DNA of 53,824 nucleotides, the filler included, from Jimgerdemannia flammicorona (lineage: Eukaryota): assembly GCA_003990765.1 (NCBI GenBank). It is 2 parts of 2 records of this genome, joined end to end, with 100 filler letters (N's around TTAATTAATTAA, not from the genome) between each part and the next. Parts side by side here need not be neighbours in the genome. Positions count along the whole stretch, not along the records: positions 26,964 to 53,824 come from RBNJ01000689.1; 1 more part is not named here. The stretch is one strand, 5' to 3'. Position 1 is the stretch's first letter. Each line of letters opens with the position of its first letter. The notes beneath the pieces are model-generated. The model was given only the letters and a program-made list of their open reading frames with translations. It ran no database searches and was not told the DNA's origin. This document shows, piece by piece, positions 10,413-53,507 of this stretch. A program made the translations under genes and the position numbers.

Positions 10413-10447
<35 letters not shown>

Positions 10448-10821: not shown

Positions 10822-10861
<40 letters not shown>

Positions 10862-10973
10862 ACTTACACATTTCACATCCTTTAACTTGCATGACTTCAG
10901 ATAGGCCCGATTTTTGGGTCCCTTATATCAACGGCTCTTTACAACTTTTTCAAGTGGGCTAAATATGAGCTGG

Positions 10974-11005
<32 letters not shown>

Positions 11006-11013
11006 CTTTCACT

Positions 11014-11044
<31 letters not shown>

Positions 11045-11208: not shown

Positions 11209-11536
11209 TTTACTATTCCCTCAACATTCCAGTATTTGGGTATATGTGTATTTACCGCGTCAATTTATAGCAATAAAGTTCTTCCCTTTTAATGGCAGCC
11301 GTCGCACAAATGGGAGAGAGGAACATCGGTATTGGCAATACAGAAAAATGGTTACATTGATGATAGATAATTACAAATTGGATTTCAAAGTTAACCTTCA
11401 AAACAAAAACTACATACTGATTGCGATATTATCTTCGTGATTTCAAGCATGTACATGAAAAAAATATATGATCGAGACTCTGTACATAATCCAAAAAAAA
11501 AAAACTGACACCACTTTCAAGTATTTTGCTTGCCCA

Positions 11537-21515: not shown

Positions 21516-23579
21516 TGTAAGAGGGTTACTTTTTAGGGTAACCATTACGTAGTTCTGGAAGGGTTTTCTGGATATTCTGGATGTTCTGGAAGACCGTTTT
21601 CTTATGGTCAAGATTAATTGCGTATAGAGTATGTCCTCTATGCTTATTGATTTCAAGATCGGGTTGATGTCTCAACCAAAGTCCTTTCTCGGACTAGTTC
21701 TGGATGTTCAGGATTTTCCATATTTCAGGAAGTTCAAGAAACTAAGACCAGCTTAGTTGAATTGGCGTATTGCTGCAGACAATACCCAATTAGGAAATTT
21801 CGTGACAGAGTTAGGAGTAGGACCTAACAGGGAGCGGATTTACTTAAGAGTAGTTTGTGGGTTATAGAATAGGTTTATTTGCTATTCATGATATTACTAT
21901 ACTAGGAGTATTTGTGTGAAGGGATATTGTGGGGAAGTGCTCAGGAGTTGTGTTCGAATTGTTCAAGTCTGAGATTCTGAGGTCTGGGGGAGGGGGTATT
22001 TATACTAGTGAGGGGCTATCTGGACTATGCTAGATATAGATGTAGCACTAAGTGCCTTGCTGAGTCGGAATGCAGTCACGTAGTACAAGTGTGATCTGAC
22101 ATGTCAAGAGATCATCTGACTGCTGAGTCAGTTCACAGTTATATCGTACAAGGCTAATCTATCTATACTATGACTGCTAGACTATTTATAGGTTTAGGCA
22201 CTATCTGGGTAGTCTTCGATGACATCACCATCGATTGCATCATCTCTGATGAAGTAGTCATCTAGGAAGAGTGGTTCGCGGATTACTTCTCTTTGTTGGC
22301 TGAGGTAGTAATACATTGGGACTTCATCTCCATCCCACAGGATAGCATTGTCTGTCTCGTAGGCTAGATAAGGTGTTGGTGGGCAGATGATGGGTGTATT
22401 GTCTTCGCTTTCATCAGATTCACTGTCTGCATACCTTCTATAGGTTACAGCACTATGAGTCGCAGGGTTGTAGTAAGCTAGTGGCTGTGGTTCATGTTGC
22501 TCGTACTCAGGTGGTGGCGTTGTTGGTTCAATCTCGAGGGTTGTCTGGAGGTACAGGTTGTGTTCTCCGGTCTCTTCATTGTAGTTGAAGTAGTCGGGGG
22601 TGAATGCAGGTTGGTATTCGTGCCAGTGGTCATTGTCTCAATAAGTTTCGTATGTGGTTATGAACTATTGTAAGTTCATCGGCAAGGTTGGCGGAGTGAT
22701 CAGGGTTGGCAGAGATCCTTGGCTAGAGGTCATATCAGCATCAGAGGGATCATTGTCTTCTGCTTCATCTTCATCGAAGTGGATTATATCGTAGACATCC
22801 TTCATGGTGTATCCAACTTGGGGCATTTGTAGGATATGGTCATCAGGGTGCAGGAAGGTTCTGTCTGTGGTCTGGACGTATTCGAGGTACTTGTGGTTGA
22901 GTTCTTGTATCATGTCATCGATTTGGCCGTAGGACAGGGTAGCAATCATTTTGCTGGTAGTAACTCAGAGGCGGGGAATAAAGGTGTTGTATTCGTAGAA
23001 GAGTTCTTGATGTTTGCGGGCGATGAGCTTCTGGTGTTGAGACATCTGGGTAATATCTGTATCATGGTGGTGTTCGACCATATCTTCCAGGAGGCAGCCG
23101 ATCTGGTAGTAGCTTGAGATTTATCCGATTCGGTGGACCTCGCTAAGCATGTTCAGGGCGTTTCATCGGGCTTCCACAAAGTAGAGGGGTGCCAGGCTAT
23201 GGATATTCATGAGGGGCAGAGGGGGTGTAGCTCGGTTGACAATGGTATTCCAAATGTCAGCACAGATATAATTGTAGATCTTGGTGGTCATGTTTGTGTG
23301 TTGGGAAGTTGTGGTTGTTGTTTGTTTTGGTTCTCTGATTCGATGCATCTCAGTGCTCAGTATATATGCATTTGGTCCTGATTGGTAAGGTTCTGTTTAT
23401 GTAGATCTTGTGTTCTGTGACTTCATATTGACTCAGCTTTGTGCACTGTGACTTCAGTTTGACTCAGCTTCATGATCAAGCAGGTGATTTCCAGATTTGT
23501 TCAGAGGTCACGTATGATTTCAGTAGCTTGTTCAGAGGGTGACGTGTAATTTCGGTGGCTTGGAGGTTGTGCGCTTACA
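21516..23579 (-). repeat. Family A LTR (2064 bp), termini TGTAAG...CTTACA
   Basis: 6-bp terminal inverted repeats, directly after the PPT. TATAAATA at 22004-21997. Full-length homology to 645-2734. Confidence 0.92.
22194..23291 (-). pseudogene. ORF inside family A LTR (~365 codons, acidic, PPEY motif), interrupted only by point stops
   Basis: ORFs 23163..23348 and 22665..22949 and the tail to TAA 22194 share one frame with no indels. Five in-frame stops. Confidence 0.75.
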
Positions 23580-26862: not shown

Positions 26863-26963
26863 TNNNNNNNNNNNNNNNNNNNNNNNNNNNNNNNNNNNNN
26901 NNNNNNNTTAATTAATTAANNNNNNNNNNNNNNNNNNNNNNNNNNNNNNNNNNNNNNNNNNNN
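26863..26963. other. Assembly gap with artificial six-frame-stop linker
   Basis: N run containing TTAATTAATTAA at 26908-26919. Confidence 0.97.
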
Positions 26964-29900
26964 TTTTTTTAAAGTCACTTAGACTTCCCTTTATTATTGT
27001 CTTCTATAATAATAATGATACAATATCACCCCATCTCTTCAACCAATACCCCTCTGATCTACTCTACCCTCCTCTACTCTCCCCTGCCAGAGGACAACCC
27101 AGTTACCCACTATCTGAATCCTTCTGCCACTTTTCTGAGAGATACACTGTACTAACCCCCTGTGACTCCCTACACCTATCTCCCACCCTCACCACCAGCC
27201 ATTCAAAATATCCAGTAATAACTACTCTCAATATACCACCCTATCCTCAACTCCCACCCACTGGCCCTCCTCAAATATATATACCCAATGCTCAGCTATC
27301 TCCACCCATATGGCCAGAGCCCAACTGAGGGTCAGCCATTCATCCTTGACCCATTCAACCAGCCTTTGGCAGAGCTCTCCCCATCTCTCCCCTTTCTCTC
27401 CCTCCAGGGCTTGTAGCCCTAACTAGTCTGCAATATACCACCAAAACACCCCCAAAATTTCACACTTACCAAGCCAATATTCAGGTATTTGTATCACTCC
27501 CCCTTCCTGTCTAACATCAAAGCACTCCTCACACTCAAATGTGCCACCGGCCATCAAGTGCCCAGACCGATAGTTCAACATCACATTCTACCATAGGACT
27601 CACCACCATATCACTCAGAATTTGGAGGGCAACCACTGTATCACCTGCTTGCTCCAATGCCAGAGACCATTCCAGTCTCACTCCTCACTAATACTAACTC
27701 TCTGCCAGACTTCAGGCCAAAGATCACCACCCAAACCCCACAAACACTCTATACCATCACTAAGCTAGAAGTCCTCCACCAAAGCTCTGCCCAGCAGTAG
27801 CCTGTCCCATCACCACATCTACAGTCCCCAATCCTCCTCTCCTTCATCACCCTATCACCAAAGACCAATTCTTCTAGCCCCATCTATCACCCTCCATCAA
27901 AAGCCCTTATACTGCATCCTCCTGCTCCCATCCATAGCCACTATCACAAGTAGGTCACCAGAGACTCCATGAGGGGAATACTGGGTCTCCCACACCCTCT
28001 GTATGAGCAGTACCCACTCCTGGCCCCTCAGCTCACTTGCCCTCCTCAGCCACCAGGTCCTCAAATAGTGAAGCTGTTTGGTAAAGTCCACTAAACCCAG
28101 CCCACCTCTTTCCACTGGTAGGGTAAGAACCTCCCAGCCTATCTGACTCTACCACTCTCCCCAGATCCACAATCTCACCATCTTCAATAGCCCCTTAACC
28201 ACCCAAGCCAGAAAGTCCAGATGATATTCTACATACCACAGCTTTGGTATCCAATATACATTCAGCACCATCACCCTTCCTACCAAGGATATATGCTGAC
28301 CACCCCAATGCAGAAGCATATTTCCCCACTCTAGAAGTCATTGGTTCCACCATGCATAGAGGAGGAATGACCCAAATACTGAGAAGTAGATCCCCAAGTA
28401 ATGTACTGACTCTCCTGCTAGCACCACTGTCCCAATCACATCGCCATCAATGATTCCACCACCTAGCACCAGAGTCTCACATTTGTGCTAATTGAGTTTA
28501 GCACCTGATCCCCTCTCATATCATTCAACAGACCTTTGTAGTTCCCCTACATCTACCAATGAGCCCAGTCCAATCACCATATTATCCACAAAGGCTCCCA
28601 CCTTCCAATTTATCCCTAGAATGTCCAATCCCCCAATTCGATGCCAGATCCTATCCAGTAGGGGCTCCAGGGAGAGGGCATACAAGATGGGTGACAGAGG
28701 GTCCCCTTGTGGCACACTATGACCAAGAGGAAAGGCTACCTCCCTGTGGCCATTGACTATCAAGGCTGCCTGACTGTTTTTCAAAAGATCAATCAATGAT
28801 CCATAAAAACCTGGGGGAACACTAATCTGTTTCAACACTCCCTCTAACCAGATCCTCCTCACTCTATCATATACCTTCTCTTGATCCAAAAAGACCAATT
28901 GGCCATCCACCCCTGCAGCCTAAGCTCCTTCAATCATACTATATATCTAAGCCATCTCATCATGGATCAACTGACCCCCGACAAATCCTCACTACTCCAC
29001 ACCAAGCATCTGCTGAGTGATTCTCTATAGTCTCAACACCAATATCTTGATCACCAATTTGCAGTCCATGTCAAGTAGCATGATTGGCCACCAGTTCTTT
29101 CAATCTTCCCATCTCCTCTTATCCTTGTAGAGCAAGGAGACCAACCCTAGGTGCTGGCCCCCAATCTATGTTCCAGACCAAAGAACCTCACCATACATAT
29201 CTGTTATTTCCTCCAATACCTCACCCACTCCAGCCATCTTCTTCCAAAAGTCCCAGAGAAGTCCATCCTTCCCCAGAGCCATCTTCTTATTTGTCATAGC
29301 CAAAACCTTACAAATTTCCTCTCCACTCACCAGGTCCCCCAAAGACCCCAGACTCATAGCAGAGTCTAGATGCCAATCCCCCAGCTGCCTCTCAATGGTC
29401 AAAGCATCCTCCCCCCCTTCCTCCTCACTCCACAGATCCTGTCAATGGGTCCTTAATAATTCCAGAATTGCCAGGGTCCCCACCACCATCTCCCCATCCA
29501 CACCCAGTACTCTATCCCACTGCTATTTCACTCATTGTATATATAACATCTGTGATAAAAACCTAGTAGGCTGCTCTCCCTCCTCAAGTCCCTGCCATTA
29601 CAGCCACACCACTATCCCCTTCAGCCTAACCTCCTTCTCCCTTCATAATATTTCCTTAAGCTCCATGACTTCCTTCTGGATCCTCACAATATGCCAGTCA
29701 GTCACCTCCCAATCCTCTAGCACCCCTGTCCATCTCCCCATGAGTGCCACCAATCACTGTGAGACCCATAGTACTCTCCACTATCACTGAACATATCTTT
29801 CTTTCTCTGCTTCCCTCCAGTACTCCTGAGTACTTGCCTTTAGCCTCCTCCAGTAGTTCCCAATCACCAGGTCCTGGTCCCACTACCTTCCAATATACCC

Positions 29901-32630
29901 AATAACCTCCTTTTCCCAGTCCACCCACAAAACCCCATCCTCTAACAAAGAAGAATTGAGTCACCAATGTCCAGGCCCATCCCCACTTCCCCCAAACCTC
30001 CCCCCTCCCAATAGACCTCAGTGATCTGACCATGGACACCAAACCACCTCTAGCAACATCCAGACATCTGCTTCCCAGCAATCTACCATCAATATCCAGT
30101 TAATTCTTGAGCCCAGCCCTGCCACTCAGTGAGTATAAATGTGATGATCATCCCAAAACTGTCTCTCTGAATCAACTAAAGAACTCAGTCTCTCTACCTC
30201 CAACCAGTCATCCAACCCACCACTCTTGCTCCTCATTTCTCTCCCTTCATCTGTCCTATCTTTCTTCTTATCTCACACTATGTTGAAGTCACCCCCCAGG
30301 CAGTCCAACCCAACCTTGTCTAAGATACCTGCCTTTTCAAACTGCAAATCCAATCCACTCATTCCCCTCTCTCTACTGGACAGTAATATGACCCCACTGT
30401 CAATAGGCTCCATCTAGACCTCTTCTACACTCTCCACACCAACTGAGACCCCCAATATTCAATATCCCCAATGTCCCCCATCCCTTTTTGAACAAGGATA
30501 TCCACCCTCCCCATCTATACTACAGCTCCCCCCCATTCCTTAGTCCAATCCTGTAAGTCCACATCTACCTCATAATGAATATCCTACAGCAAGAAGAGAT
30601 CCACATCTAGTCCCTTTAGCCATCCAAATATGAACCTCCTCCTAGCCACCTCCTATAACCCATTTACATTCAAAGAGAATATTCTAGTTATACTATTCAT
30701 ATTGAAAAAATGTTTGAATTCAAGATCCCAGCCTAGTATTCCATACTCATCTCATCTCTAGCCAGATCAAAGTACCACTCAGCTTTCAAGTTACCCTCTA
30801 CAATAGCTTGAGCATCTAATATCTCCAAAATTTCCTGACATTCCACCCCATCCACCACCTCCATCTCAGACTGATAGTCTATACATACTATTCTCCACTT
30901 CTCTAATCTCTTTCTCGAGCTCTACAAGTATACTGTCTGATCATTTACAATCTCCCTAAGTTCCTCCTCCCTCTGGTTATCCACTTGGTATTCAACAGAC
31001 CCCAAAAGAACTGCTAGGATCTCATTCCTCACCTTTCTTGGGATCTCTTCACTATGAAGAATTTCCTCTCAATGCCTCTCTTTCATAATCTGGAAGTCCT
31101 CTCCCCCCAGCTCCTCTACTGCCACCCCTTCCAGAGTCTTCCACAGCTACTTCTCCTCATCCACCACCTCTACCACACTCTGTACAACCTGACCACCCCC
31201 CACCTCTGGGTCCACCAAAGTGCTCCTCCTCACTGACTCATCCCACTCCTCATCCAGTATATCCAACAGCTCCTCCTCCCCCCCTGCCCCACTCAGGACA
31301 CTATACTGAGAGTACACTCCTTCACTCATTTCTGCATCTGTCTCTACACCACTGACCCTCTCCTCCCTCAATCCATCCTATGCCCCACCTTGGGCCACTC
31401 TGTTTTCCCCTGCCCAGGCACTCTCCTGTAATTCTGCTTTTCCATCCCCTGTGCTACTGCCTGCCCCACTACTGCCCAACTTCACCAGCAGCTCCTTCTG
31501 GATTTTCCTCCCCTGCATCTTCTCCCAGGTCATCTGATCCATTCTGACTCTCTTCCCATTGACTACTTCCACCACCATCCTTGCCTTGTACTCCTTCCAA
31601 GCCAATCTCCTCCTCTTGACCACTTCTTCCAGGTCCTCCAGAGCCTCAAGCAAGTCTTCCTCCTCTTCCAGAGTCCCCTTCACCCTTGTGACCTTGCACT
31701 CTACCAGTCCCCACTTCAGAGTCACCAGCCAGTCCCTCATCTTCCCCATGTTCTCCTTCCAGCTGGCCTCACCCAGATATCAACATCACTAGTCTGAAGC
31801 TCTGTACCCTCCCAGACCTTGAACCTGACATCTACAATCTCCCCATACTCCTTAACTACCTCTATAATCAACTCTCTAGCCCTCTCTCTTAACACCATAG
31901 GAAGATCCAACACTGTCAACTACATCACTCAGGGGTCCCAGTGCATGCACCTGGCCATCAGGACCACAACTCCACCCACTGTTACCTCTTTCTCCATAGC
32001 TGCCAGCAATGCTTCTTCTTTCTCAAACCCCATCTTGACCTCTTCTTTCCCTTTCAAAAACTTCACCAATACTGCCCCTTTTGCCTCCTGTGCCACCAGC
32101 CCAAGATCATCCTCACAGTTACTGCCAAGCCTCTGAAATACATAGTGATGGTAAATTCTGATCTTGATTTCTTAAGTAACAGTACTGACACTATGCCTGT
32201 CACTCCATTCACCAGATCCCTGGTCCTTGTGCCCACTCTCTGTCTCAAACCAGCAACCACTGTCACATCTGGATTTTTTGCCAAATTCCCAGTTATAGCC
32301 CCATCAACAGTCATATCTCCAGCCCTTACTCCCCCCCCTCCCCTACCACCGGACACTCCTCTGAGCACTTCTCCCTGACCCCCAGCAGTAGCTATCAACG
32401 CCTTCCTCAGGCCTAGCCAACTATCTAGACCAGAGGCCATTCTCCCCATCTTGACTATGCTAGTAAAGGTTGACCTCTCTCCTCCTCTCTGCCTCAGGCC
32501 ACCCCTCCCTCTACCACCAGAGCCTTGGCCAGCCATCGAGGCCCCTGGTATCCCCAAACTATCTCCCCTCCTCCCCACTTGCTGCCAGCCAAAGGCACCA
32601 CTGCCCCCCTGGCCAGTATGCTCACTAGAT
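26964..32630 (-). mobile_element. L1/Tx1-like LINE copy B, near full length (ORF1, APE, RT, C-terminal Cys motif, probable poly(A) end)
   Basis: RT motifs FLDQEKVYDRV, VPQGDPLSPILYALSLEPL, AFVDN and ERGGLGL. APE GDFN and GPGHW. T-run at 26964 beside the gap. ORF1 GNLAKNPDV. Confidence 0.9.
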
Positions 32631-32699
32631 CAATCATTACCATCTATGTTAATAGTTGTCTATTATCAAAAATGTTGTGAAAAGTATTGTCTGAGTCTT

Positions 32700-34260
32700 G
32701 TATCATCTGAATGTTACCAGTGAAAGGTATATATTTTCATTAAATATGAATGGCTTAAGAAGTGCTCAGAGATAATATAATATTTTTACTTAGCTAAAGA
32801 AATTAGAAGCTGATCTTTTTCTTTTGCAGAATGTACAATATAAGGAGAATCTGAATTGACAGGAGTAGATGAGAAAATAGAGAGGGGTAGCAGTATAGAT
32901 GGGTAAGGTTGGGATACTGGTACAGAAAGAGTAAGGTAAAATATATAATAACAGAAATTGAGAGGATCATCTGATTTGAGGGGAATGATATTGGCTAGAG
33001 TAAGAGCTAATTGTAGTTGGATCTTATTACTGCTCTGCTGTTAGAGATGAGCATGTAGAGTAGATTGCTGGTCTTTTGGATAGTAGAGCACTTGCAGAGA
33101 CTAGAGTGTGCCAATATTGGTATTTATACTTATTTTTATTCTTCTTCTTATTCTTATAATAGTAGTCATTTTGTATATATCTATACTTACTATAGTAATA
33201 GTAGTTTCTATCAAATTTTTTACATTTTTGATCTTATTGATACTTCTTATCTCATCTTTATAACCTATAGAATGTTTTCTCATTATTATCATTATTACTA
33301 TTTTCTTGATACATCTCTTTATTGATGAGACTTATTGTTATATGGATATAGTTTATGAGTTTTCTGCTCTTATATATAGCTGTTACTATAATATTATATA
33401 CCTTAAAGAGGTCTTATACATATAAGAGTCAGAATCTTATCTTTATTACTAATATACTCTACTGGTATACATACTTAGAGAATTCATCTGATTTACTAAA
33501 TTATCAATATGATTGATATATTTATAGATACTCTTCTTAGGTTTCATTTATAAATAAAATAGCTAAGATTTTAGATAGAATTAATTTAATAAGAATACTT
33601 ATATATGATGATTGCATAGAGTCTCTCATATATTGTAGGCTATTATAGTATATATTATAAGCTTTATTTGCTAGTTTGATAATATGAAGATAATCTCTTA
33701 TAATACTTAGTAATTATTTGTAATATCATAATCTTGAATCTGTATCTATAGTTTTATATACTCTACTAAGCTACACTCCTTTAAGAGATTACTTATATAG
33801 AATACTCAAATAGTATAATTTTTACTATTAAAGATAGAAATCAACCTCTTGACTATATTTATATTTACTATAGAAACTGTGATCATCATATCCATTCTAG
33901 AGATACTTATGTCTATTGTATTTAGTATACTTATACTTGTACTAATTTCTTGGTTTATCTATACTGATATTTTGACATAGAGTCTTAGAGAGATATTTCT
34001 TATTAACTACTCAGCAGGGCTTATAACTTTTGTTATAACTTAGTAAAGTAGGGAGAAGAGGAGAGAGTGGAGTATTTTTTATTATTCTAGATAGTATATA
34101 TTTATATATTGAGTAATATAACTCAAAGATGATATAGTTATATATATAAGTCATATTATTAAGATATCAAAATAAAATTTCAATATTTATATAGAGTGAG
34201 GGCTAAAGACTTAGTAGTTGGAGATTTAAACTACTTAGGAGAAAACTCTTATTATCTTGA
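32700..34260 (-). mobile_element. Heavily mutated AT-rich Gypsy gag/protease relic
   Basis: Residual VSIDI (PMDID-like gag end) near 33180 and general composition; no intact motifs. Confidence 0.35.
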
Positions 34261-34288
34261 GTAAGCTTACTAGTAATAACTATACCTA

Positions 34289-34390
34289 TCTCTTCATTAG
34301 TATTGAAATGTAGCCAAATTTGGCTGCAAAAAAAAAAAAAAAAAACTGGGGTAATTAAGTCAATAAAAAAAAAAAAAAAAAAAAATAGTA
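34289..34390 (+). mobile_element. Partial copy (5' end) of the palindrome-bearing mini-element at 38529
   Basis: A|TCTCTTCATTAGTATTGAAATGTAGCCAAATTTGGCTGCAAAA matches 38529-38570 with transitions only. Confidence 0.6.
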
Positions 34391-34699
34391 AGTTTGTCTA
34401 TTGATGATAGCTCTTCTACTGATAGCTCTCTCTTCCTCTTTCTGCTGAAGTAAATGTGGGACAGGAGGGATCCCTCAGTATATTCATCCAGACTTTGGCT
34501 GGAACCTTGTAGTGGTGCATAGTTTTTCCAGTACACTTTGATTATAGTCTACTTGGTTCTCTCAATGAAGTACTACTTTCAGCCCTGATCTTTATGGTAT
34601 TGTAGCTTTAAGTATAGGTCCAACACTGTTCAGAGAAAAGAAGAGTAAGTTTTTGTGGGGGTTTTCTCTGTTTTGGAAGAGGCAATGGCCACATGCTGA

Positions 34700-34830
34700 C
34701 ATATCTATACTGATTGAGTATACAGTAGTATCTGTTTTAGAGTAGTATTTTCTGAGCTTGTCCTCTAGTCAGTCAATCAGAAGGTTGTATACTGGTATTG
34801 CAGAGCTTATTGTCAGGGTCATTTGTTTGA
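34700..34830 (-). mobile_element. hAT transposase fragment
   Basis: Minus strand reads TLTISSAIPVYNLLID*LEDKLRKYYSKTDTTVYSI, resembling the conserved YPT.S...P.YN.L.D / KL.KYY segments of Ac-like transposases. Confidence 0.6.
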
Positions 34831-34959
34831 CTATATCCTTCATACAATTATCAAAACACTGGCAGTTATATATGGTGAGGTATTGCATTATGTGGAGGCA
34901 GACAAAATAAGTGTAGAGTTAGAGCAATCACTACTTACTTCCAAAACCCTGACAATATT

Positions 34960-36990
34960 CCTAAGTATGTCTCACTCACTTTCACCTAGAGTCTTGTCTC
35001 ATATTTCCTTATCAGTAGCCACCATTGTAAGTCCAAGTCATGTTTAGCAGCCAGTACCTTCTCTTCCACTACCCATGCCTCCAGTCTGACCAGAAGTTTA
35101 GCCATCTTCCCATCCTCTTTTTTCTTGAAATCCTCATGATATTTCAGGCATGCCTCCTGCCAGAGTTGCAAATCATGATGCTCTGCCTAACAGTAGGCAG
35201 CTCACTCACCAGCAATGACCACTAGCTCAGCCTCTCTTTCCTTATCAACCTCATATCCCTCCTTCTTCAGAAAAATCACAAGTATCTCTGCCTTTAGTGC
35301 CTTCACTACCCCATCTCCATGCAGAATCTATGCCCAATGATCCTTACTTATCACTCGCAGGTCCACTTCTCCCAACTCTTCAGCTATGAAGTTATCTATC
35401 ATCTTGCTTATCTATCTCCTTCCCTCCAGACATCTCTGGTCTCCCTGTATCCAGCATCATGGTATCTGTCCCTACACTGGCAGTCTCATCCCACCCCTCC
35501 TCTGAGATATCCACCAGCTCATCCTCACCAACTGCCACTACCTGTCCTCCTTTCATCACATCTAAAACCCCAAAGTATATCCACTAATTGCCCCTTATCA
35601 GCTCATCCTCTGCCACCTGACCCCTCACAGCTGGACTCTGCCTGACCAATAGGGGGGTGTCATCAATGACTGGTTTCCAGACTTCAAATATACCATTAGC
35701 AAAAGAGTCTTTGTGAGGTACCTTCCCAGCTCCTTCCAGGCCCTCCTCTATATCTCCTCCTCTCTTACTAGCCCAGACACTTGCCTCTACATTCTCAGAC
35801 TTCTCAGTACCCCCAGCCTTTATCTTTATCCCTCCTTCTATGCTTACCAGCAGCTCCCTCTACCTCTGGCACCCTTGAGCCCTCTCCCACTGCCTCCTAT
35901 CAGTATGAATATGCTTCTCGTCAACAATCTCTAGATGTATCAACTCTATATACAACTTCCAGGCCTTTGCCCTCTACTCAACAGTACTACTCAACTCCTC
36001 TAGAGCCTTCAACAAGACCTCCTCCTCCTCTTCACTCCTTTTTATCCTTGATACCTTGCAGACAAAAGTTCTCCACATTAATACTGAAGGCCAGTTACTC
36101 ATCTTCTCTGTGGCCTCTCTCTCAGCCAGTCTAATCCTGACATCTACATCACCCATCCTGAAGGTGGTCTCCTCCCATATCTGAAAACTGATATCAACCA
36201 CATTGCCATACTCCGCCATCACCTCCTCCACCCTCCTCCTAGTCTTATCCTTTGTCACTGTGGGCACTCTCTTTACTAGTAACTGCACCACCCTGGGGTC
36301 CCATCTCAAGCACTTCACTATAGAGATCACTACCTCCCCTATAGCTACTCTAGACTTCAAAGCCTCCTCCAATAGATCTGCCTTCTCAAAGCCCACCTCC
36401 ACCCCCTCCAACCCCTTCAGAAACTTCACTGAGACCACTCTAGCCATCTGCTCTAATATAAGCCCCAGAACCATCCTCACCATCACAGCCAAGCCCCTGA
36501 AACACAAGGTCACCATGAACTCCAAAATTGACTTCTTGAGCAATAGTGCCACCACTAGCCCCATCACACTATCAGTCAGGTCTCCCTTCTGCTTCAGGTC
36601 CATCTGCCTAGCCCTTCCATCAATAGTCACATCTGGATTTTTTTTCAGATTCCCAGTCATGCTACCATCAGCAGTCCTGCTACTACTCTCAGTAGCTACT
36701 CCACTAGCCCCACCTCTCACCAGCTGAGGTCCAGCACCTCCAGCTTTCCCAACCTTCTGCTTTCCCTTCCCTCCTGCCTGCCCACCCTGAGTTCCCACCA
36801 GCCAACCTCCAGCCCATAGTATATCTGCAAAGCTTCTCTCCTTCTGCCCTCCAGTTCCACTAGTAGTGCCACTTCTACTACCCAAGCTGTCCTGCCCACT
36901 CTGACCACTGAAAGACCCCATTCCTAATCTATACCCTTGCCTGACATGTTGTCAGTTAAAGGCCCCAGGTCTACCCAATCTAGTATACAT
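34960..36990 (-). mobile_element. L1/Tx1-like LINE copy C (5' UTR and ORF1 only)
   Basis: ORF 35974..36921 with GNLKKNPDV and an RRM-like VVQLLVKRVP..EYGNVVDI..GDVDVRI segment. 5' leader motif shared with copies A, B and D. Confidence 0.85.
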
Positions 36991-40287: not shown

Positions 40288-41890
40288 TATAACAGTGATC
40301 TCAGAATAGTGACATCATCACAAGAGATAGCCTTTTTTTACAAGTCACCAGATCAGAGTACAAGAAGATCATATGGTATAACTCACCTAAGTTATAAGAT
40401 GAGTAATGATGACTAACCATGAGTCATTATAACTATAAGATAGACATCTCAAGGAATATAAAAGAAGGACTAAGGAACTATAGCAGCAGTAACTCAAACA
40501 AGATTTATAAAATCCCAAAATAGCTCAAAGACTCACTATAAACAAAATGTCTGCCACTTGCCAAACCTCAAGATCAAGAAACTACCAAGGCTTCTCAGAA
40601 TATTCTAAGACATCAGAAGAGTAATGGTGACTCATATCAGAAGAACTCCTAGCCTCAATCTGGGTACTAGTAACTCTTATCACTTTATTCTCTACTACTA
40701 TAAAATGGAAACAAGGATCACTATTGCTACCAAATACCTCTGAATATGATAGAAATATGAAATAAGAAACCTCCTTTATCAGGAATTCCCTTAGACCAGT
40801 CTCCAGGAGATACAAGATGCTACCCCTATAGATATATGAATTGAGGATAGCTAAAAAGATCTATTAGGTCTTTAGATATATATCTTAGTCAATCCCCAAC
40901 TTGGAGTATATCAGATTCTCAGACTTCAAGAAATTATCAGCCTACTGTACAGATGTACTAGAGGCTATGGTGGTTACAGAAGTCTAATTCACCATCACTC
41001 TTAGAAGTAATAAGATAGGAGAGTTCTGGAATTCCATCCTTGAGGACAATCCTGATCAATTCCTATAAGAATTAATCTCAGTATTCTAAGGCCCCAGTAT
41101 CCAGGTTAGGCCCTCTCAAGATTCTACCTTTATCTCTTACTTTGTAGAAAAAAACCTCATAGATTAGAGAGCCCCTGATCTTCTTGCTCCCACTGCCTCC
41201 AAACATGATGATATTATTAGTGATGATATTATTATATATATATATAAAATGCATAATATATATGAAACATATGAAATAGATGAAATGTTTGCTAATCTTA
41301 TTTCTTTTGAAGACATTCTGTCCCCAACCTCTAGCCTTGATAATAGTGATAAAGATGAAGTCTCCAGAATTCTGAACATTCTGCTCTGAGTTCTTTGTAT
41401 AACTGTTGAAATTCTTTTAGCATTCTAATTTTATATAACTGAAATTATTCTAGTATTCTGATCTTATATAACTAATTATACAGATACTTGAATTTGTACT
41501 TATAACTAAAGTTTTCTGTATTCAAGTATCTTATTTATTTAGTTATTGAAATTTATATTTAGTTTTATAACTTAGCAACTATTGAATTATATTTTGTATA
41601 AATACCCCTCTCATTTCTTTTGAAATAAAGTCAGTAGTCAAGTATTCAAATACTTGAATATTTAAGTCCCCAACTACTCAGAAGTACAGAAGTTCTAGTT
41701 CTCTATTCAATTCCAAGCAAGTGAATCTAAGAGACAACAGAATAGTTTAAAGATAAGAAGTTTGAAGACTATAAGATCTTGGAAAGACACTCTAATAGAA
41801 CTTGCTTATAAGAAACTTATAGTTGGTTTAAGAGATATATCTTGAAGAGAATCTGATATACTTGGAGAACTTAGCATCTACTATATGACA
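40288..41890 (+). repeat. Family B 5' LTR (1603 bp)
   Basis: TATAACA...TATGACA. TATAAAAG at 40457, TATAAATA at 41597, AATAAA near 41624. Direct repeat of 47567-49134. Confidence 0.92.
40547..41389 (+). pseudogene. Decayed ORF inside family B 5' LTR (~280 codons)
   Basis: ATG 40547 to TGA 41387-41389. Two compensating deletions (10 and 2 nt) relative to the 3' LTR. Several stops are sense codons in the 3' LTR. Confidence 0.65.
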
Positions 41891-44075
41891 ACTTAGTACT
41901 CATTGGCTAGTGATATCATTAGGATTCCTTACTTTTAAGCTGAAAAATAAACAACTACTATAACAACTACTCTGACTACAAGAGTTATCTCCTATAAGAA
42001 TCAAGATAAGATAGAAATATATCCCCCCACATTCTATGGATTTACTACTGAAGAGTTAATCCTGATCTTCATTGAAGACTTTAAACAATTTGCTACTATA
42101 TAAGCTCTCACTGTAAAAGTACAATTGGTCCTTCTACTAGTCAGCCTTAGAGGACCTGCCAGAGATAAGTTCAATATAGTCACTATTGCTGATACTAATG
42201 CAGCCAAACTCACTAATATAAAGAACTTCCTCAGAACTATATACTATACTGAAGAGATCAAGCAAGCTCTCAAAGATCAACTCAATACTATCTATCAAGA
42301 ACTCAATGAAGACTCCAACTTATTCTATACTTGAATCTGCTACCAGATTGTTTTGGCTAGCTATGATGATACTCTTAAGGAATAGATAGCTGATTCAACC
42401 TTCCTAAAAAGAGTCTACTATGAAATTATACTAGCAATCTAGTCTATTTCAGCTATTCTGATCCTTGACCAGAAAGTGGTCTTTATATAGAGATATTGAA
42501 CTACTAGATACTCTGCCAAATACTCAATGGAAAGAATAACTTATATTAAGATAGAGCCATTAAAGCCAACCAGTATCATACCCACTATAGCTATCAATAG
42601 ACAAATATTTCCACCTATCTCCAAGATGACCAAAACTGACCCAGTGGAGGAACTTATCTAGCAGTTTGCCAAGATGATGACTGCACATCTTGGTGATATT
42701 ATTAGAGAAGTACAAAGTGCCAACAGGAGACTAGTGCAGAAGTTTGCAGTTACTATAGAGGAGTACACTATTATATACTTCAAATATTGAGAAGAAGGCC
42801 ACTATACAAAGAATTGTATAACTGAAACAAGATACAGAGCCCAACCAAATAATGTTACTAGAATCAGAGAACAAACCAATACTATAGTCATCAAGAAGAT
42901 TGGTGATACTGATGATGAAGAATACTATGAGAAGTTTAAATTCTATCCTGTTACTAAAGGTATCAGAACTCAGTCTAAGCCCTATAATAAGAAAAGTAAT
43001 AGCAAGCTAGCTGAAAGACAAAAAAAGACCTCAACCATCACTATTTAAAGCAAGACCCAATCTGAGGAGATTGATTAAGACATGGAATTAGATAAAGCTA
43101 CCTGCCAAATTATTGAAGACACTACTCTAGTCTCAGGAGAAAGTGAAAGTAAGAAAGAACAGAAGCTATATAAGACCAAGATCCACTAGTATGATATCTA
43201 TAAGAACCTCAAGGAACAGAAGGTCAATGCTACTTTTGGACAACTAGCAGAAGTCTCTGCCTTCAGATAATAGTTGAGAGTAGGACTTGCAACCACTGTC
43301 AAGAACTAAGAGTACAAGATCATAGAAGCTCACAATGTATAAGAAGACTCAGGTGAAGAATCTATAGATTAGTACAAGATCTCTACCTATACTTAGTATT
43401 AGATTGAAGATTGTATCTTTGATACTATTATTGATACCAATACTGAAGGATGTCTTATAAACAAGAAGACAATTGACTACCTAGGCTGAGATATTGAAGA
43501 ATCTATCAAAATAGTCTATATTATAGCAGATAATATATGAGCTACCCTCTTAAGTAAGATTTGAGAAGTTCTCATTAAGATTAGAGGAGCTACTATCCTA
43601 GTAAATATAATTGTTATAAGTACCACTAACTATAATATCCTCATTGACAACTAATGGCTTCACAAGACTAAGACTATTATTGACCTCTGTCCAGAAGATA
43701 CAGATCAACCATAGAGAAAAAAAGATATAAGTCTCTATCAATATCTACAAATAAGTATATAGAGGAAGGAGATGAAGAGAATATAGAAGTCTTCATATAC
43801 TCAGTGTATAAGAACAAGAGTAAGATGACCAAGCTCACAGATAAGCAGTGGTACAACAAGATCATTAATGGCTATACTCCTTAAGAAAGATACCCCCATA
43901 GTACTGCTCTGAATATCTAAATAACTACTGGTCCTATATCAGTTAAGTTAGAAAAATCTGTCAACAAAGATATGAGTAAGAAGCTGCTGAAGCAAAAAAG
44001 AAAGCCAAAGAAGATGACCAGCCCCCAGAGCTTCAAGCTGATAGTGATGATGAGGAAGAACAAGAACCAGACATC

Positions 44076-44489
44076 ACCCTCAAGATTAAGAAGTTTCACC
44101 CCAAAATCAAGATCCTAGAATATAAGGCTAAAGAAGCTATAGGAATAGACCTTGCCAGCATCCAAGATGCCATTCTCAAACTACAGACCACTACTCTACT
44201 TAGTACTGAAATTGGAGTCATGTTATCAGAGAACCATGTTGAAATTATCAAAACTGAGAGCAGTCTGGCCAAGAGCAAAATCTCAGTTGATGGAGGAGTC
44301 ATTGATCCTAACTATACTGATGAGATCTTTCTTATAGTTAGGAATTACAACTCCACCACTCTATTCAAAGTCAAAAAGTATGACAGAATTGACCAGATAC
44401 TAATCCATGAAGTTAAGAAGCCTAAGATCACTGAAGCTATCAAACTCATCAAAACTAAGAGAGAAGAATAAGGCTTTGGATCTACTGAA
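44076..44489 (+). pseudogene. dut: dUTPase domain in the family B pol, between protease and RT
   Basis: All five trimeric dUTPase motifs in one frame: AIGIDL, ESSLA, GGVIDPNYTDEI, DRIDQ, REE*GFGST. Confidence 0.9.
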
Positions 44490-47400
44490 AGAGGAACCTA
44501 TGCTGCTACCAAGATTACTGAACTCAAGTATAAGAAAAACAAGAACCAGAATAAGTACACATATACCATTAGAGAAAACTTTCCCCTAAAAGAACAACTT
44601 CTCAAGATCTTACACCAAAATAAAGAAGTACTCACCACAGACTTCAGGGATATCCACAATCAAGAATCCAAGTACTACCATGAAGTTGACACTAATGATA
44701 CTAAGCCCATCTACCAGAAAGCCAGACCTATACTATCTGTCAACAGAGAATGGCTGCAAGCAGAACTCAAGGAAATAGAAGAAGCTGATATCATCAAGTA
44801 AGCTATCAGCTCTTGGGCTTTACTCATTATCCTTGCCCCAAAGAAAGGAAGCAAGCCTGGAGAGTTTGTCCTAAGACTCTATATTGATTATAGAAAGCTC
44901 AATACAATCACCAAGAAGGATAAGCAGCCCTTGCTAAATATTCAAAAAATTCTTACCACTCTTGGAAGTAAAGCCAAATACTACACCACCTTGGATTTAT
45001 TCTCAGACTTCTATCAGATTGGTCTCACTCAAGATACTAGTAAAAAATCAGCCTTCATCATATCTGATACCACCTATGTCTATCTGCAAATGTTAATTGA
45101 AATATACAATGCCCCAGAAAGTTTTCAGCAAATGATAAATAGAGTCTTCAGCAATAAAATTAGAAAATAGCTCTTTATCTATATTGATGATATGATCATC
45201 TTCAGTAATACTGTATGGAAATATATCAACTATATATAACTAGCTCTCAAGAAGCCCAAGGAGTATGGCCTCTACATCAAGCCCAAGAAGTGTAAGTTTA
45301 TAGCTCAAGAAATTGTCTACCTAGAACACATTATCAATCAGACTGGAATTCATATAGATCTTATGAAGATTGAGACTATTGCAGCCTACCCAATATCCAG
45401 AACAACTACAGAAGTTCATGCCTTTCTTAGACTGGCCTCCTACTACAGAAGATTTATCAAAAAAATACTTTAATATTGCAGTACCTATCTATAAGCTACT
45501 GAAGAAGGAGATTAAATTCAAATAAACCAAGAAATATCAAGAAACTTTTAATAAAACTCAAGACCAGATTGACTCAAGTACTTATTCTCAGAAGACTAGA
45601 TTAGAACCTAGAGTTCATTCTGCAGATAGATGTAAGTATTATAGAACTTGGAGCAGTGCTAGCTCAGAAGAAAGATGGACATAAATATGCCATCTCCTAT
45701 ATAAGCTAAGGTATCTATAAAGCAGAACAGAACTATGAGTCATACAAGCTTGAATGCTTAGCAGTAGTCTAAGCAGTAGACAAGTTCCACTACTATTTAG
45801 CTAGAAAACACTCCACTATTCAAACAGACTATTCTGCTCTTGCCTGGCTATTCCATACTCTGAACTCTAAAGGAATATATATCAGATAGATCTACAGACT
45901 GTAAGAGTGTAACTGTACTGTCAAATACTACTCAGGATGAACTAATATCAATGCTGATATACTCTCAAGAATACTCCAAAACACCCTCATTAAGACTATT
46001 CAATATGAATAAGGAGCTATACTATAGATCAATCAGCTACCTTAAGTAGTAGAAGATGTCCAACTACCTCAAACCCTGGACTATTACTATTATCAACTGG
46101 ACTTGGAAACAATTTGAACTAGACAATACTATACTCAGAAAAGGTGGAAAACTCATTATACCCAAATATAAGAAGTATCAAGTAATAAAGGAAGTATATA
46201 AACAAGGATACTTAGGAGGAACCAATATATATGACAAGATAAAAAGAACTATATGGTGATCTAAGATAGAAGAAGACCTATACTAATTTGTCAAAGAGTG
46301 TGATAAGTATCAAAAACAGAAATAAGATCAGTAAGACCAGGTATCCAGATTATTAAAAATTAAACCTATCTCCTTCCACCACATCACAATGGATATTATT
46401 GAACTACTACCAGTAACTCTATCAGAAAACTGCTATATTATAGTTATTGTAAATCTCTTTACCAAATGGATAGAAGCAGGAGTATTACAAGAAGTCAATA
46501 CTCTCTCTATTGCTGACTTCCTATACTAAGAAATTATCTTCTACTACAAGATACTAAGGCAAATTACTATAGACCATAGCACAGAATTTGTCAACAGATT
46601 CTATGAGATAATATATCAGAAATACAAGATTCAGTATATCAAGACTACTGTATATTACTCTCAAGAAAATGAACAGACTGAAAGAACCAACAAGACCCTT
46701 AAGAATATTTTGGTCAAGATCTTAGATATATATGAGAATTGGGATAACTACCTCCCAACTGCTCTCTCCATCCTATAAGACATATAGTCATGGAGTACAC
46801 ACTTTACCCCAAGAGAACTGCTCTTCAGAGAAGAAGATTCTGCTAGAACCTCAGCTATAAATCTAGATCTAACTTAATAATATATTGACTCAGAAATCCA
46901 GAGACTATACCAAATCAAGAAGAAGGCAGAAGATTATATTAGCAAGTCATAAGTACTAATAAAGAAGAATACAGAAAAGAATTATAAGACTCTAGAACTC
47001 ATTCAAATTGGAGAAAAGGTTCTACTATATCAAAATATAATAGAAGTCTCATAGTCACAAAAACTGAAGTTCAAATGAGAAAGACTCTTCTATATGTAAA
47101 ATATCAAGAGAACTACCTTCTGGCTTAGAAAACTCTCAGAGACTATACTGTCTATCATGATATATAGAAACAGACTCAAGAAGTACTATGAACCTATATA
47201 AGAGAAGAAAAACATAATGATCACCTATAAGGTTCTAGTCTATGAATCATAACAGCATGTCCTGTAACCAGTAGGCAATCTGTCTGGACTATTCTCTAAG
47301 AGATATGATACCAGTAACTACTTATCTATAAGACTTTTAAAGCTAGAGAAGTTTGAACCATCAACTGATTGATCAAGATCAGAATCAGGCTCTTGCTCTA

Positions 47401-47566
47401 TATAAAGGAAGTGACTCTTCACTATTATACCAAAATATATAAGGAAGATACTAGCCTATAAATACTACTTTTTGACCCTCTGTTAGAGGTTATAAGATCA
47501 GCAAATTTTTCAGACTAGACCAATGAATAAGAATACTTAAGAGAAGATCCTTATTCAGAAAGAAGA

Positions 47567-49134
47567 TGTAACAGTAATCTCAGAATAGTAATATTATCAT
47601 AGAAGACAGCCTTTTCTTACAAACTATCAGATTGGAGTATAAAAAGATTATACAGTATAACTCACCTAGGCTATAAGTTGAGCAATGATAACCAATCATG
47701 AGTTATCATATATAACTATAAGATAGATATCTCAAGGAATATAAAAGAAGAACTAAGGAACTGCAGTAGCAGCAACTTAAATAAGACTTACAAAATCTCA
47801 AAATAGCTCAAAGACTTACTATAAACAAAATATCTACCACCTACCAAACCTTAAGGTCAAGGAACCACCAAGGCTTCTTAGTTCAAGAAAGGATATTCCA
47901 AGACATCAGAAGAGCAATAAGGACCTATACCAGAAGAACTCCTAGCCTCAACCTGGGTACTGGTGACCCTTACCACTTTATTTTCTACTACTGTGAAATG
48001 GAAACAAGGATCACTATTGCTACCAAATACCTCTAGATATAGCAGGAATATGAAATAAGAAATCTTCTCTACTGGAAATTTCCTTAGGCCAGTCTCTAGG
48101 AGATATAAGATATCACCTCTATGGATACATATGAATTAAGAGTAGCTAAAAAGATCTATCAGATCTTCAGGTGTACACCTTAGTCAATTCTCAACTTGGA
48201 GTATATCAGAGTCTCAGACTTTAAGAAATTGTTAGCCCACTATACAGATGTACTGGAGGCTATGGTGGCTATAGAAGTCCAATCCACTATTACTCTCAGA
48301 AGTGATAAGATAAGAGAGTTCTGGAATTCTATCCTTGAGAACAATTCTGATCAATTTTTGTAAGAATTAATCTCAGTATTCCAAGGCCCCAGTATCTAGA
48401 TTAGGTCTTCTCAAGATCTCATCTTTATCTCCTATTTTGTAGAGAAGAACCTCATAGATTGGAGAGCTCTTGATCTCCTTGCTTCTACTGCCCCTAAATG
48501 TAATAATGTCATTATAATGATGTCATCCTGTATATATACAAAATGTGCAATATATGCAAAATACATATATGAAATAGATAAAATATTCACTGACCTCATT
48601 TTCTTTAAAGATATCCTGTCCCTAACCTCTAGTCTTAATAATAGTGATGAAGATGAAGCCCCCAGAATTCTTGAAATTCTTCTGACATTTTGATTTTGTG
48701 CAACTGAAATTATTCCAATATTCTGATCTTATATGTACAACCAATTGTACAGATACTCAAATTTGTACTTACAACTGAAGTTGTCTATATTCAAGTATCT
48801 CATTTATTTGATTATTAGAATTTATATTTAGTTTTATAACTTAGCAACCATTGAATTATATTTTATATAAATATCTCTCTTTCAAATACTTGAACATTCA
48901 AGTTCCCAACTACTTAGAAGTACAGAAGTTCCAGTTCTCTATTCAATTCCAAGCAAGTGAATCCAAGAGATAATATTACAGTTTAAAGATAAGAAGTTTG
49001 AGGACTATAAGACCTTGAGAAGATACTCTAATAGAACTTGCTTATATATAAGAAACTTATAGTTAGTCTAAGAGATATATATATCTTAAAGAAAATCTGA
49101 TATACTTAGAGAACTTAGTATCTACTATATGATA
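47567..49134 (+). repeat. Family B 3' LTR (1568 bp), containing the second copy of the LTR ORF (~47830-48693)
   Basis: TGTAACA start after the PPT; ends TATGATA before the ATAG TSD. Confidence 0.92.
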
Positions 49135-51289: not shown

Positions 51290-53507
51290 TATATGCTAGG
51301 CCGAGTAGCTCTAGTACATTTGACTGGCAGTATATGGGGAGGTGTTATAGCTTGGGGGGAAGCATGTGAGGCTTGCTAGCTAGAAGATATAGAAGGAGAG
51401 GAGGTAGTACTGGGAAATAGGAGACTGGGAGGATGAGCTTTATAAACAAAGTGAAGGAGGGTTATCTGATGACTAGACTAGAGGACTGACTGAAGAAGAG
51501 CAAGAAAATGGTGAGAGCTACAGAGTCTGGTGGAGTGGCCTATGGCAGTAAGAGCAGTAGAGCTGGGGGAGTAGTAGCTGGGGGGAGTAGGACTGCTGAT
51601 GGTAAGGAGACTACTAATCTAAAAAAAAATCCAGATGTAATAGTTGATGGTAGATCTGGACAAAGGGTGGGCATGAGGTCTGGAGATCTGATAGATAGTA
51701 TGATAGACCTGGTGGCAGTACTATTACTCAAGAAATTGAGGTCAGAATTCAATATTATATTGTGTTTCTGAGGCTTAGTAGTAATAGTAAGAATAATTCT
51801 AGGACTGCTGGCCCAGGAGGTGAAGGGGGCAGCATTGGTGAAGTTTTTGAAGAGTCTGAAAGGAGTAGAGGTTGGTTTCAAGAAGAAGGATATACTATTG
51901 GAAGTAATAGAGAAGAGAGTGATAGTGAGGGGAATAGCAATCTCCATGGCCTAGTGTTTACACTGAGATCCCCAAGTGGTGCAGCTTATAGTGCTGGATA
52001 TTCCTATAGTGTTGAAGGAAATGGTCAGGGGGTTGATTGTTGAGGCCATCAAGGAGTATGGAAATATCATAAATATCAGGTTTTGGATCTAAGAAGGCAC
52101 AGAATTCAGGATAGAAGATGTAGATATCAGGGTGTGGCTAGTAGATAAGGAGAATATAGAGAAGGCAAGAGACTGGCCAGTAGTTCTCAAGTGAGGACCT
52201 ATAGAGTATAAGGTCTTGAGAGTAAAAGAGATGCTAGAGAAAGAAGAGAACTTGCTGAAGACATTAAAGGATTTGACTGTGGCCATAGAGAGGAGAAGAT
52301 TAGTCTGAAAAGAGTTTAAGGCTAAGACAGTTGTAGAGATTGTAAATGGCAAGAAGGTGCAGCTGGATTGGGCAGCCTGGAAGAGAATACAGGGGAGGCA
52401 TATTCAGAAGAATCTGTTAGCTAAGTTGGGGGGGGGGGGCAGCTAGAGAAACCACCACTGAAGAAGCTGAATTGAGAACAAGTGCCTGGATAGAAGAGAA
52501 GAGAGTGGTATCAGAGAGGACCCCAGAAGAGAGAGAGAGCACAGGGCTGAGTGTTGTTGTAGAGGATACAGAGATGGCAGAAGGGGAGTACCCTCAGTAT
52601 GGGGTACCAGATAGGGCTGAAGGAGATGACAAATTGCAGAATATATTGAAGAAGGATTGAGATGAGTCAGTGAGGAGAAATGCAGAGAGTGGGCAGGTGG
52701 AGAGGAGAAAGAGAGTGGCCCAGAGAGTAGTAGAGGCCAAGGTCAAGGAGAAATAACTATGGAAAATACTTGAGAATATGGTGGCTGAGGAGCTAGAGAG
52801 AGAGAATTTCCAGATACTGAGTGAAAGGCACTGGGGTGAAATCCTGTATAGTGAGGAGGTGCTGTGAAAACTCTAGAATGAGATAATAGTGGTATTTCTG
52901 GAGACTGAGATATATTAGATAGATAATGACAAAGAGGTGGTACTGCTGGTAATTGCAAATAACAGGGCTACATATATGTGGGACTTGAGGAAAGGGCTGA
53001 TAAAGTAGTAGGTAGTATGCAAGAAGTACCAAATAAAGATGGAGGCTATAGATGGTGTGGATTGTCAGGAGATCTTAGAAGTATTAGAGGCTCAACAGAG
53101 AGAGACAGATGAACTAGAGGCAGAGAAGAACCTAGATATTGCTGGTGATGTGACAAGTATGAAATTGTAGAGTAGATAGCTTTTCTTTAAATAATATTAT
53201 TCAATATAAATAGTATAACTAGAATCTTATCTTTGAATTTCAATAGGCTATGAGGAGCAGTAAGGCATCAAAATATCTTTAGATTGCTGAAGGGAACAGA
53301 AGCAGATTTATTCTTATTATAAGATATTGGGTATAATAGAGATCTGGATATTCTGGACTAGACAAAGAAATAGAGTAGTGTAGCTGTTTGGTAAGGATGT
53401 GTGGGTATTCTGGTTAGGAAAGTAAGGGGAACATTGGAGATATTGGACATTAGGAGAGCAGAGTAGTGTGGGGGGTTTGGAAGAGACCAGGCTGAAGGCC
53501 CTTGATA
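51290..53507 (+). mobile_element. L1/Tx1-like LINE copy D (5' UTR, ORF1, start of APE)
   Basis: TNLKKNPDV and EYGNIINIRFWI. APE start RILSLNFNRL..ADLFLL at ~53220-53320. Confidence 0.85.

What the first reader, a model, noticed from the sequence alone, without database searches (positions are those of the whole stretch)
40547..41389. A second, unrelated Gypsy family also has a protein-coding LTR (~280 aa)
Seen: the 3' LTR gives one frame from 47830 to ~48510 (STTYQTLRSRNHQGFLVQERIFQDIRRAI...EFWNSILE..DQFL..YFVEKNLIDWRA), and the 5' LTR supplies the ATG and an acidic tail (DEMFANLISFEDILSP..DKDEVSRIL). Complementary 5'/3' LTR codons include TAA/CAA twice, CAG/TAG twice, CAA/TAA, TAG/TGG and TAG/CAG. 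Some stops are shared by both LTRs. There is no clear similarity to the family A ORF. Inference: an independently acquired U3 cargo gene.
Basis: partly seen in the sequence, partly recalled or inferred. Interest (0 to 1): 0.72.

Follow-up and report, generated by a model that had tools for sequence, protein, structure and literature searches.

The report
Accessory gene inside fungal retrotransposon LTR
A high-copy Gypsy-type jumping gene carries a real, formerly selected gene of unknown family, with its own promoter, wholly inside its terminal repeat, and related jumping genes in the same genome carry the same gene family, so it was not picked up independently.

Summary
The ORF is real. The window's two LTR copies are decayed, but 25 of 138 scored genome copies are stop-free. 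Across 78 copies this frame has 0 fixed stops against 3-11 in the others, subfamily differences favour codon position 3 (30/48), and shared indels are in-frame (15/15 against 4/20 outside). It lies in U3, between its own TATA box and the main TATA/polyA, in 5', 3' and solo-like LTRs.

'Independently acquired' is not supported. Families C and D in this genome encode clear homologues (31-40%). In D the gene sits just outside the LTR, its stop abutting the PPT. Family A aligns colinearly over about 120 residues (1/2000 shuffles): probably homologous, not proven. Exchange between lineages is likely, but the trees do not prove it.

No Pfam, PDB or fold match. Best guess (about 40%): a Tas-like transactivator. 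The layout resembles MMTV sag. I found no paper describing it. This scan reported the same family earlier on other DNA of this genome.

The parts
40288..41890 (+). 5' LTR of family B Gypsy element (1.6 kb), preceded by ATAG, compatible with a 4-bp target-site duplication
40457..40463 (+). TATA box about 90 nt before the ORF start (putative promoter of the ORF)
   Evidence: TATAAAA in the 240 nt before the ATG in 63 of 78 copies, at 87 nt in 54
40547..41389 (+). U3 ORF, 5' copy (about 280 codons; decayed by stops and two small deletions)
41407..41473 (+). 33-bp tandem repeat between ORF stop and main TATA (35-bp x 5.8 in a less mutated copy); candidate enhancer or binding sites
41597..41629 (+). 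Main TATA box (41597) and AATAAA (41624), which place the ORF in U3
   Evidence: TATAAATA in 69 of 78 and AAATAAAG in 64 of 78 copies; same motif pair in the family D LTR
41892..41910 (+). Primer-binding-site position
   Evidence: conserved TGG-starting tract after the LTR in 5' copies; primer not identified
41900..43750 (+). gag and protease, decayed
   Evidence: weak RVP_2, E 0.044; intact-looking gag in related copies
44106..44486 (+). dUTPase between protease and RT
   Evidence: PF00692 E 2.6e-18
44871..46637 (+). RT, RNase H, integrase (Gypsy order, no chromodomain hit)
   Evidence: RVT_1, RT_RNaseH, Integrase_H2C2, rve
47557..47566 (+). Polypurine tract
47567..49134 (+). 3' LTR; TATA boxes at 47740 and 48866; AATAAA lost in a 33-nt deletion
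47830..48693 (+). U3 ORF, 3' copy (8 internal stops; start decayed; reads on to a later stop)
22191..23291 (-). Family A LTR ORF (about 365 codons, in LTR about 21516-23579); probable distant homologue; coordinates approximate

Best explanation
Family B is a dUTPase-bearing, non-chromoviral Ty3/Gypsy element. Its U3 holds a complete accessory transcription unit: TATA box, about 280-codon ORF, tandem repeats, then the main TATA and polyA signal. SHOWN: the gene is real, was under purifying selection, sits in 5', 3' and solo-like LTRs, and belongs to one protein family with families C and D (probably A). In D it lies just outside the LTR. INFERRED: it is transcribed from its own TATA as a short mRNA ending at the LTR polyA signal. 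Moving the plus-strand priming site (PPT) from one side of the gene to the other explains the inside/outside difference, direction unknown. The 3' cassette has been exchanged between lineages by recombination. GUESSED: the protein (helical N-terminal domain with a basic start, acidic low-confidence tail) is a trans-acting transcriptional activator of the element's own LTR, working like foamy-virus Tas and possibly binding the repeats that follow the ORF. The copies in the window are dead.
For: Coding: 25 of 138 scored copies stop-free; 20 of 20 fetched have a 282-328-codon open frame, 17 with ATG; fixed stops 0 against 6, 3, 4, 11, 4; 30 of 48 subfamily-diagnostic sites at position 3 against 10 of 35 downstream, p=0.004; diagnostic transversions 8 of 24 synonymous (expected 16%, p=0.025) and transitions 14 of 20 (expected 32%, p=0.0006), 4 unclassifiable sites dropped; shared against private transversions in B1 16/37 against 20/113 synonymous, p=0.003; shared indels in-frame 15/15 against 4/20, p=2e-6. 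Anatomy; TATA-like boxes 62-87 nt before the ATG in A, B, C and D (read). Copies: 31 3', 19 5', 20 solo-like, 8 undetermined of 78. Family. D: stop abuts PPT and LTR start in 14 of 16 loci; its 5' LTR lacks the ORF. Exchange: B-D ORF 40% but RT 34-37%, A-D RT 53-55%; C and D share a 254-nt, 82%-identical non-coding block after integrase. Protein: net charge +5 in the first 40 aa and -10/-12 in the last blocks, no transmembrane stretch; helices over residues 18-149. Tas has an N-terminal DNA-binding and a C-terminal activation domain and its own internal promoter (PMC4929722, passages).
Against: Nothing tests the function: no Pfam family, no known DNA-binding motif, models only pLDDT 55 and 64. 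An acidic tail is not specific to activators, and only the first 40 residues are clearly basic. The upstream control also had 6 of 10 diagnostic sites at position 3 (small n; the frame is often open upstream of the ATG). The ORF tree does not contradict vertical descent: its best four-family tree puts A with D, as the RT tree does, at 57/39 support, so exchange rests on distances and the shared block. Kinship with A has hhalign probability of only 11-15%. Promoter activity and transcripts are not shown.
Confidence: 0.42

Rival explanations
1. The protein is an anti-silencing factor that protects the element's DNA or chromatin from host methylation, working like VANC of plant VANDAL transposons (recalled).
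For: Strong cytosine-targeted decay of these elements: CpG o/e 0.0; C>T/G>A 0.59-0.70 at CpG-type columns, 0.31-0.50 at CpA/CpC, 0.18-0.20 at CpT. Several lineages keep the gene, and B and C also carry dUTPase.
Against: No similarity to a known anti-silencing or chromatin domain. All carrying families are still mutated. Not separable from transactivation without experiments.
Confidence: 0.2
2. The protein acts on RNA or particles (Rev/Rem/CERV-like export of genomic RNA, or a particle-associated factor), with the conserved block after integrase as its response element.
For: A 254-nt non-coding block after integrase is 82% identical between C and D. The N-terminus is Arg-rich. CERV of Cer1 is a precedent in an LTR retrotransposon (PMC10309623, search listing only).
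Against: BLASTN did not detect that block in B or A. The acidic tail and own TATA fit a transcriptional role as well.
Confidence: 0.2
3. One reading: the family A and family B LTR ORFs are unrelated, separately acquired genes (B, C and D still form one family).
For: BLASTP E=0.044 over 43 aa; first hhalign probability 0.6%, later 11-15%; C-terminal parts do not align; end lengths differ (365 against 278 aa).
Against: A B/C/D profile built without A scores A at 12.7 bits: 1 of 2000 shuffles reach it, the reversed sequence gets -1.0, and unrelated natural frames get at most 3.3 once 3 B/C fragments missed by the motif classifier are set aside from the 258. The match is colinear over about 120 columns from the N-terminus. 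Position in the LTR and charge profile are alike.
Confidence: 0.25
4. The product limits the element's own copy number or acts on the host or symbiotic partner, rather than helping transposition.
For: Every solo LTR keeps a whole cassette (20 of 78 copies solo-like), so dosage would scale with copy number.
Against: Thousands of candidate copies (6840) do not suggest strong self-limitation. No signal or transmembrane stretch. Private mutations are neutral, so selection acted in replicating lineages, not on inserted copies.
Confidence: 0.1
5. A chance or non-functional open frame hitch-hiking in the LTR.
For: Most B1 copies carry 4-13 stops; no database family.
Against: Selection tests and in-frame indels; protein-level conservation across families at 31-40%.
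Confidence: 0.02

Closest known systems
MMTV sag (whole ORF in U3); HIV nef (partly in U3). PMC12789967, passages
   Same: Entire sense ORF inside U3, duplicated in both LTRs, with additional promoters able to express it.
   Different: Sag is a type II transmembrane superantigen of a vertebrate retrovirus. This protein has no transmembrane stretch and no detected homology, and it sits in a Gypsy element without env. Its promoter appears to be inside the LTR itself.
Foamy-virus Tas/Bel1 with internal promoter. PMC4929722, passages
   Same: 3' accessory gene with its own promoter; similar size; folded N-terminal part plus a C-terminal tail.
   Different: No detected homology; DNA binding and activation untested; Tas lies between env and the 3' LTR (like family D), not wholly inside U3.
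Sense additional ORFs (aORF-3S, env-like) of plant LTR retrotransposons; antisense aORFs of Grande, RIRE2, Retand, Boty. PMC7264820, main text read
   Same: Family-wide extra ORF at the 3' end, origin unknown; Grande gene23 has its own promoter and a nuclear product; family D matches the pol-to-3'LTR position.
   Different: The review describes none inside the LTR. Its sense aORFs are env-like, some with transmembrane domains. Here one family occurs both inside (A probably, B, C) and outside (D) the LTR.

Membership tests
Ty3/Gypsy LTR retrotransposon | PR-RT-RH-INT order between two LTRs with PBS and PPT | tested here: met
   (protease hit weak, E 0.044)
Chromovirus | Chromodomain at integrase C-terminus | tested here: not met
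   No Chromo hit in B or C; present in A and D
env-like sense aORF | Transmembrane segment | tested here: not met
   Highest 19-residue Kyte-Doolittle mean 0.86 in B, 0.75-1.06 in A, C, D
env-like sense aORF | Position between pol and the 3' LTR | tested here: not met
   Inside the LTR in B; met only by family D
MMTV sag-type U3 ORF | Whole ORF inside U3 | tested here: met
   ORF precedes main TATA and AATAAA; U3/R border inferred from motifs, not mapped
MMTV sag-type U3 ORF | Type II membrane superantigen | tested here: not met
   No transmembrane stretch
MMTV sag / foamy Tas | Sequence or fold homology | tested here: inconclusive
   No Pfam, PDB-sequence or fold hit, but models are of low confidence
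Foamy Tas-like transactivator | Own promoter separate from the main LTR promoter | tested here: inconclusive
   Conserved TATA in 63 of 78 copies; activity not measured
Foamy Tas-like transactivator | Binds LTR DNA and activates transcription | not testable with these tools
   Needs binding and reporter assays
Transduced host gene (cargo) | Present in one or few copies of the element (PMC7264820) | tested here: not met
   78 distinct B copies examined; thousands of candidates; four families
Transduced host gene (cargo) | Cellular homologue outside elements | tested here: inconclusive
   None found; eukaryote coverage of these libraries is limited

The most novel reading that the evidence does not exclude
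A fungal Gypsy radiation evolved a complex-retrovirus-like regulator of new fold as a mobile promoter-plus-gene cassette. It moved between chromoviral and non-chromoviral lineages and in or out of U3 by PPT shifts, so that thousands of solo LTRs each hold a self-contained transactivator or anti-silencing gene acting in trans across families.
Probability: 0.3. Interest if true: 0.8.

Novelty: new variant of a known kind. Interest (0 to 1): 0.57.

Why it matters
LTRs of retrotransposons are treated as non-coding, and whole U3 genes are known mainly from MMTV. Here an unannotated protein family sits in the LTRs of very high-copy Gypsy families, with natural stop-free copies that make its function directly testable. 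Family D shows the same gene just outside the LTR, which gives a concrete route (PPT relocation) between an internal 3' accessory ORF and a U3 gene. If it is a transactivator or anti-silencer, it would help explain how these elements expanded despite heavy cytosine mutation, and it bears on the open question of what additional ORFs of LTR retrotransposons do.

Tried and rejected
Pfam on the ORFs: only E>0.03 noise, none on stop-free copies. PDB sequences with the family profile: one hit at E=1.4. AlphaFold models pLDDT 55 and 64; best structural matches Z 4.0 and 4.2, no Foldseek hit at E<=0.001 in viral or PDB libraries; several winged-helix regulators at Z 3.0-3.7 are not significant and did not recur. 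ESM Atlas: top hit 0.90 unnamed, blank for family C. Homodimer prediction: no verdict. Metagenome contig scan: 1 of 310 stretches passed (L111); inspection showed a phage-like region seeded by one peptide with no LTR or pol, rejected. Viral contigs: 0 of 88. Sequencing runs: no RNA holder listed; two runs guessed to be RNA have contigs across the ORF, but contigs cannot show strand, start or level, so they were not used. No further family was found in the loci held. No remnant purine tract was seen right after the B or A stop (sequences). Tree test for exchange: unresolved. Raw column-variation counts by codon position in the first 30 copies were only weakly informative. No tRNA in the window. 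Paper searches listed no report of an LTR-encoded ORF in a fungal Gypsy element; subscription papers, Repbase and supplements were not seen.

Full report
Element. Window 40288-49134 is a Ty3/Gypsy element with 1.6-kb LTRs (40288-41890, 47567-49134), a PPT, a PBS-position tract and ATAG on both flanks. Pfam finds dUTPase, RT, RNase H and integrase in Gypsy order, a weak protease hit, and no chromodomain. The LTRs differ by 225 transitions and 7 transversions in 1535 columns, and CpG is absent. The divergence is therefore cytosine hypermutation, strongest at CpG but also at CpA and CpC. The host is a 231-Mb repeat-rich eukaryote. I did not test the taxon.

Observation. The 3' copy has 8 stops against 11-34 in other frames; 9 stop positions are complementary between the LTRs and 5 are shared. 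The 5' copy is off-frame for about 80 codons, and the 3' copy lost its terminal stop.

Is it a gene? A protein search of the genome scored 138 of 6840 candidates; 25 had no stop. I fetched 20 of these 25, and all have a 282-328-codon open frame, 17 with ATG. From 85 matches, 78 distinct copies remained after 7 duplicates were dropped. They split into an old, mutated subfamily (52, including the window's) and a less mutated one (26). Over codons 1-217 the frame has 0 fixed stops against 6, 3, 4, 11 and 4 in the other frames. Subfamily-diagnostic sites fall at position 3 in 30 of 48 cases (downstream control 10 of 35, p=0.004). They are synonymous in 8 of 24 transversions (expected 16%, p=0.025) and 14 of 20 transitions (expected 32%, p=0.0006); 4 sites could not be classed. 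Private transversions are neutral (20 of 113 synonymous) and shared ones are not (16 of 37). In 30 copies, shared indels are in-frame in 15 of 15 cases inside the ORF and 4 of 20 outside. Against: the upstream control had 6 of 10 sites at position 3.

Anatomy. The ATG lies about 240-260 nt inside the LTR. TATAAAA precedes it in 63 of 78 copies (87 nt ahead in 54). After the stop come 33-35-bp tandem repeats, then TATAAATA (69 of 78) and AAATAAAG (64 of 78). By motif the ORF is in U3, upstream of the genomic-RNA promoter, so a 5' or solo copy could be expressed only from the upstream TATA (inference). Copies class as 31 3', 19 5', 20 solo-like and 8 undetermined.

Relatives. Database searches gave only unnamed or hypothetical metagenome proteins: 5 hits with a single query, 5 among 1.84 billion representatives, 11 with the wider profile. 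Two distant hits led back to two more high-copy families in this genome. Family C (150 scored of 4647 candidates) has its ORF inside a 2350-nt LTR pair. Family D (118 of 6095) is a chromovirus whose ORF follows integrase; its stop codon abuts the PPT and LTR start in 14 of 16 loci, and its 790-nt 5' LTR lacks the ORF. ORF identities are B-D 40%, C-D 36% and B-C 31%. RT identities are A-D 53-55%, B-C 37-45% and B-D 34-37% for the less mutated copies. C and D share a 254-nt block at 82% after integrase. An accessory gene as conserved as RT, and this block, point to exchange of 3' ends. However, the ORF tree is unresolved and its best topology groups A with D like the RT tree (57/39), while the RT data reject the other groupings (p-AU 0.003). 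Exchange is thus likely but not proven.

Family A. Its 365-codon LTR ORF (150 scored of 4493) is marginal pairwise. The profile match improved as B-side diversity grew: E 0.1, 0.0029, 0.0019, colinear over about 120 columns, but with probability of at most 15%. A profile without A scored it at 12.7 bits; 1 of 2000 shuffles reached this, and unrelated natural frames scored at most 3.3 after 3 misclassified B/C fragments of 258 were set aside. I put homology at about 75%.

Function. The protein has a basic start, a helical core (residues 18-149), a small beta part near 200-212, an acidic low-confidence tail and no transmembrane stretch. No family or fold was identified. With its own TATA and its place beside the enhancer repeats, the most likely reading is a Tas-like transactivator (about 0.4). 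Anti-silencing and RNA export follow (about 0.2 each). These are inferences; nothing here measures function or expression.

Comparison and novelty. MMTV carries the whole sag ORF in U3 and HIV nef overlaps U3 (PMC12789967, passages). Foamy Tas has an internal promoter and N-terminal DNA-binding and C-terminal activation domains (PMC4929722, passages). The review of additional ORFs describes them between pol and the 3' LTR, with unknown origin (PMC7264820, parts 1-2 of 3). A survey of fungal LTR elements does not mention dUTPase, and no passage I saw mentions an LTR ORF (PMC3248453, passages). Other papers were seen as search listings only. Eight searches listed no fungal LTR-encoded gene; subscription literature and repeat libraries were not searched. 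The layout is a known kind, and the protein family and its inside/outside placements appear undescribed. The scan's own notes report this family many times on other pieces of this genome and found no look-alike in other genomes; these are unchecked notes, not independent support. Two of them doubt the A-B kinship, which my test supports only moderately.

Verdict. Observation confirmed; U3 gene supported; independent acquisition not supported. New variant of a known kind; interest 0.57.

Noticed in passing
window 44106-44486; L136; L138:3986-4996: dUTPase in three Gypsy families: between protease and RT in B and C, between gag and protease in chromoviral D.
   Followed up: partly
L136 (C) and L129/L147 (D), after integrase: 254-nt non-coding block, 82% identical, shared by families whose RTs are 35-39% identical; possible cis element or recombination scar.
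   Followed up: partly
window 48880: The 3' LTR has lost its AATAAA in a 33-nt deletion.
   Followed up: yes
window 19237-21178 (-): RT and integrase of another Gypsy element, 54% to family C RT, abutting the family A LTR at 21516; probably a nested insertion.
   Followed up: partly
window 46-2734 and 21516-24162: Two family A 3' ends in opposite orientation, each with chromodomain end and LTR.
   Followed up: partly
window 28500-36950 and 51500-53500: Several decayed LINE-like copies (RT-like frame at 28521-28919 and repeated ORF1-like frames).
   Followed up: no
window 9859-17650: Host genes with normal CpG content: an aquaporin-like frame (9878-10225), a PH-domain coiled-coil gene (11537-15058) and a GDSL-like hydrolase; the aquaporin and GDSL labels are recalled from motifs.
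   Followed up: no
family B copies, L001-L080: Mutation is broader than CpG: also strong at CpA and CpC, weak at CpT.
   Followed up: partly
L063, L067, L069, L074, L080 flanks: 5' flanks of family B insertions are often TA-dinucleotide runs, suggesting a target preference.
   Followed up: no
L069:2898-3099: The 35-bp U3 repeat contains a near-perfect dyad, a candidate site for a dimeric binder.
   Followed up: no
window 26864-26963: Assembly gap of N; the two halves of the window are different contigs.
   Followed up: no
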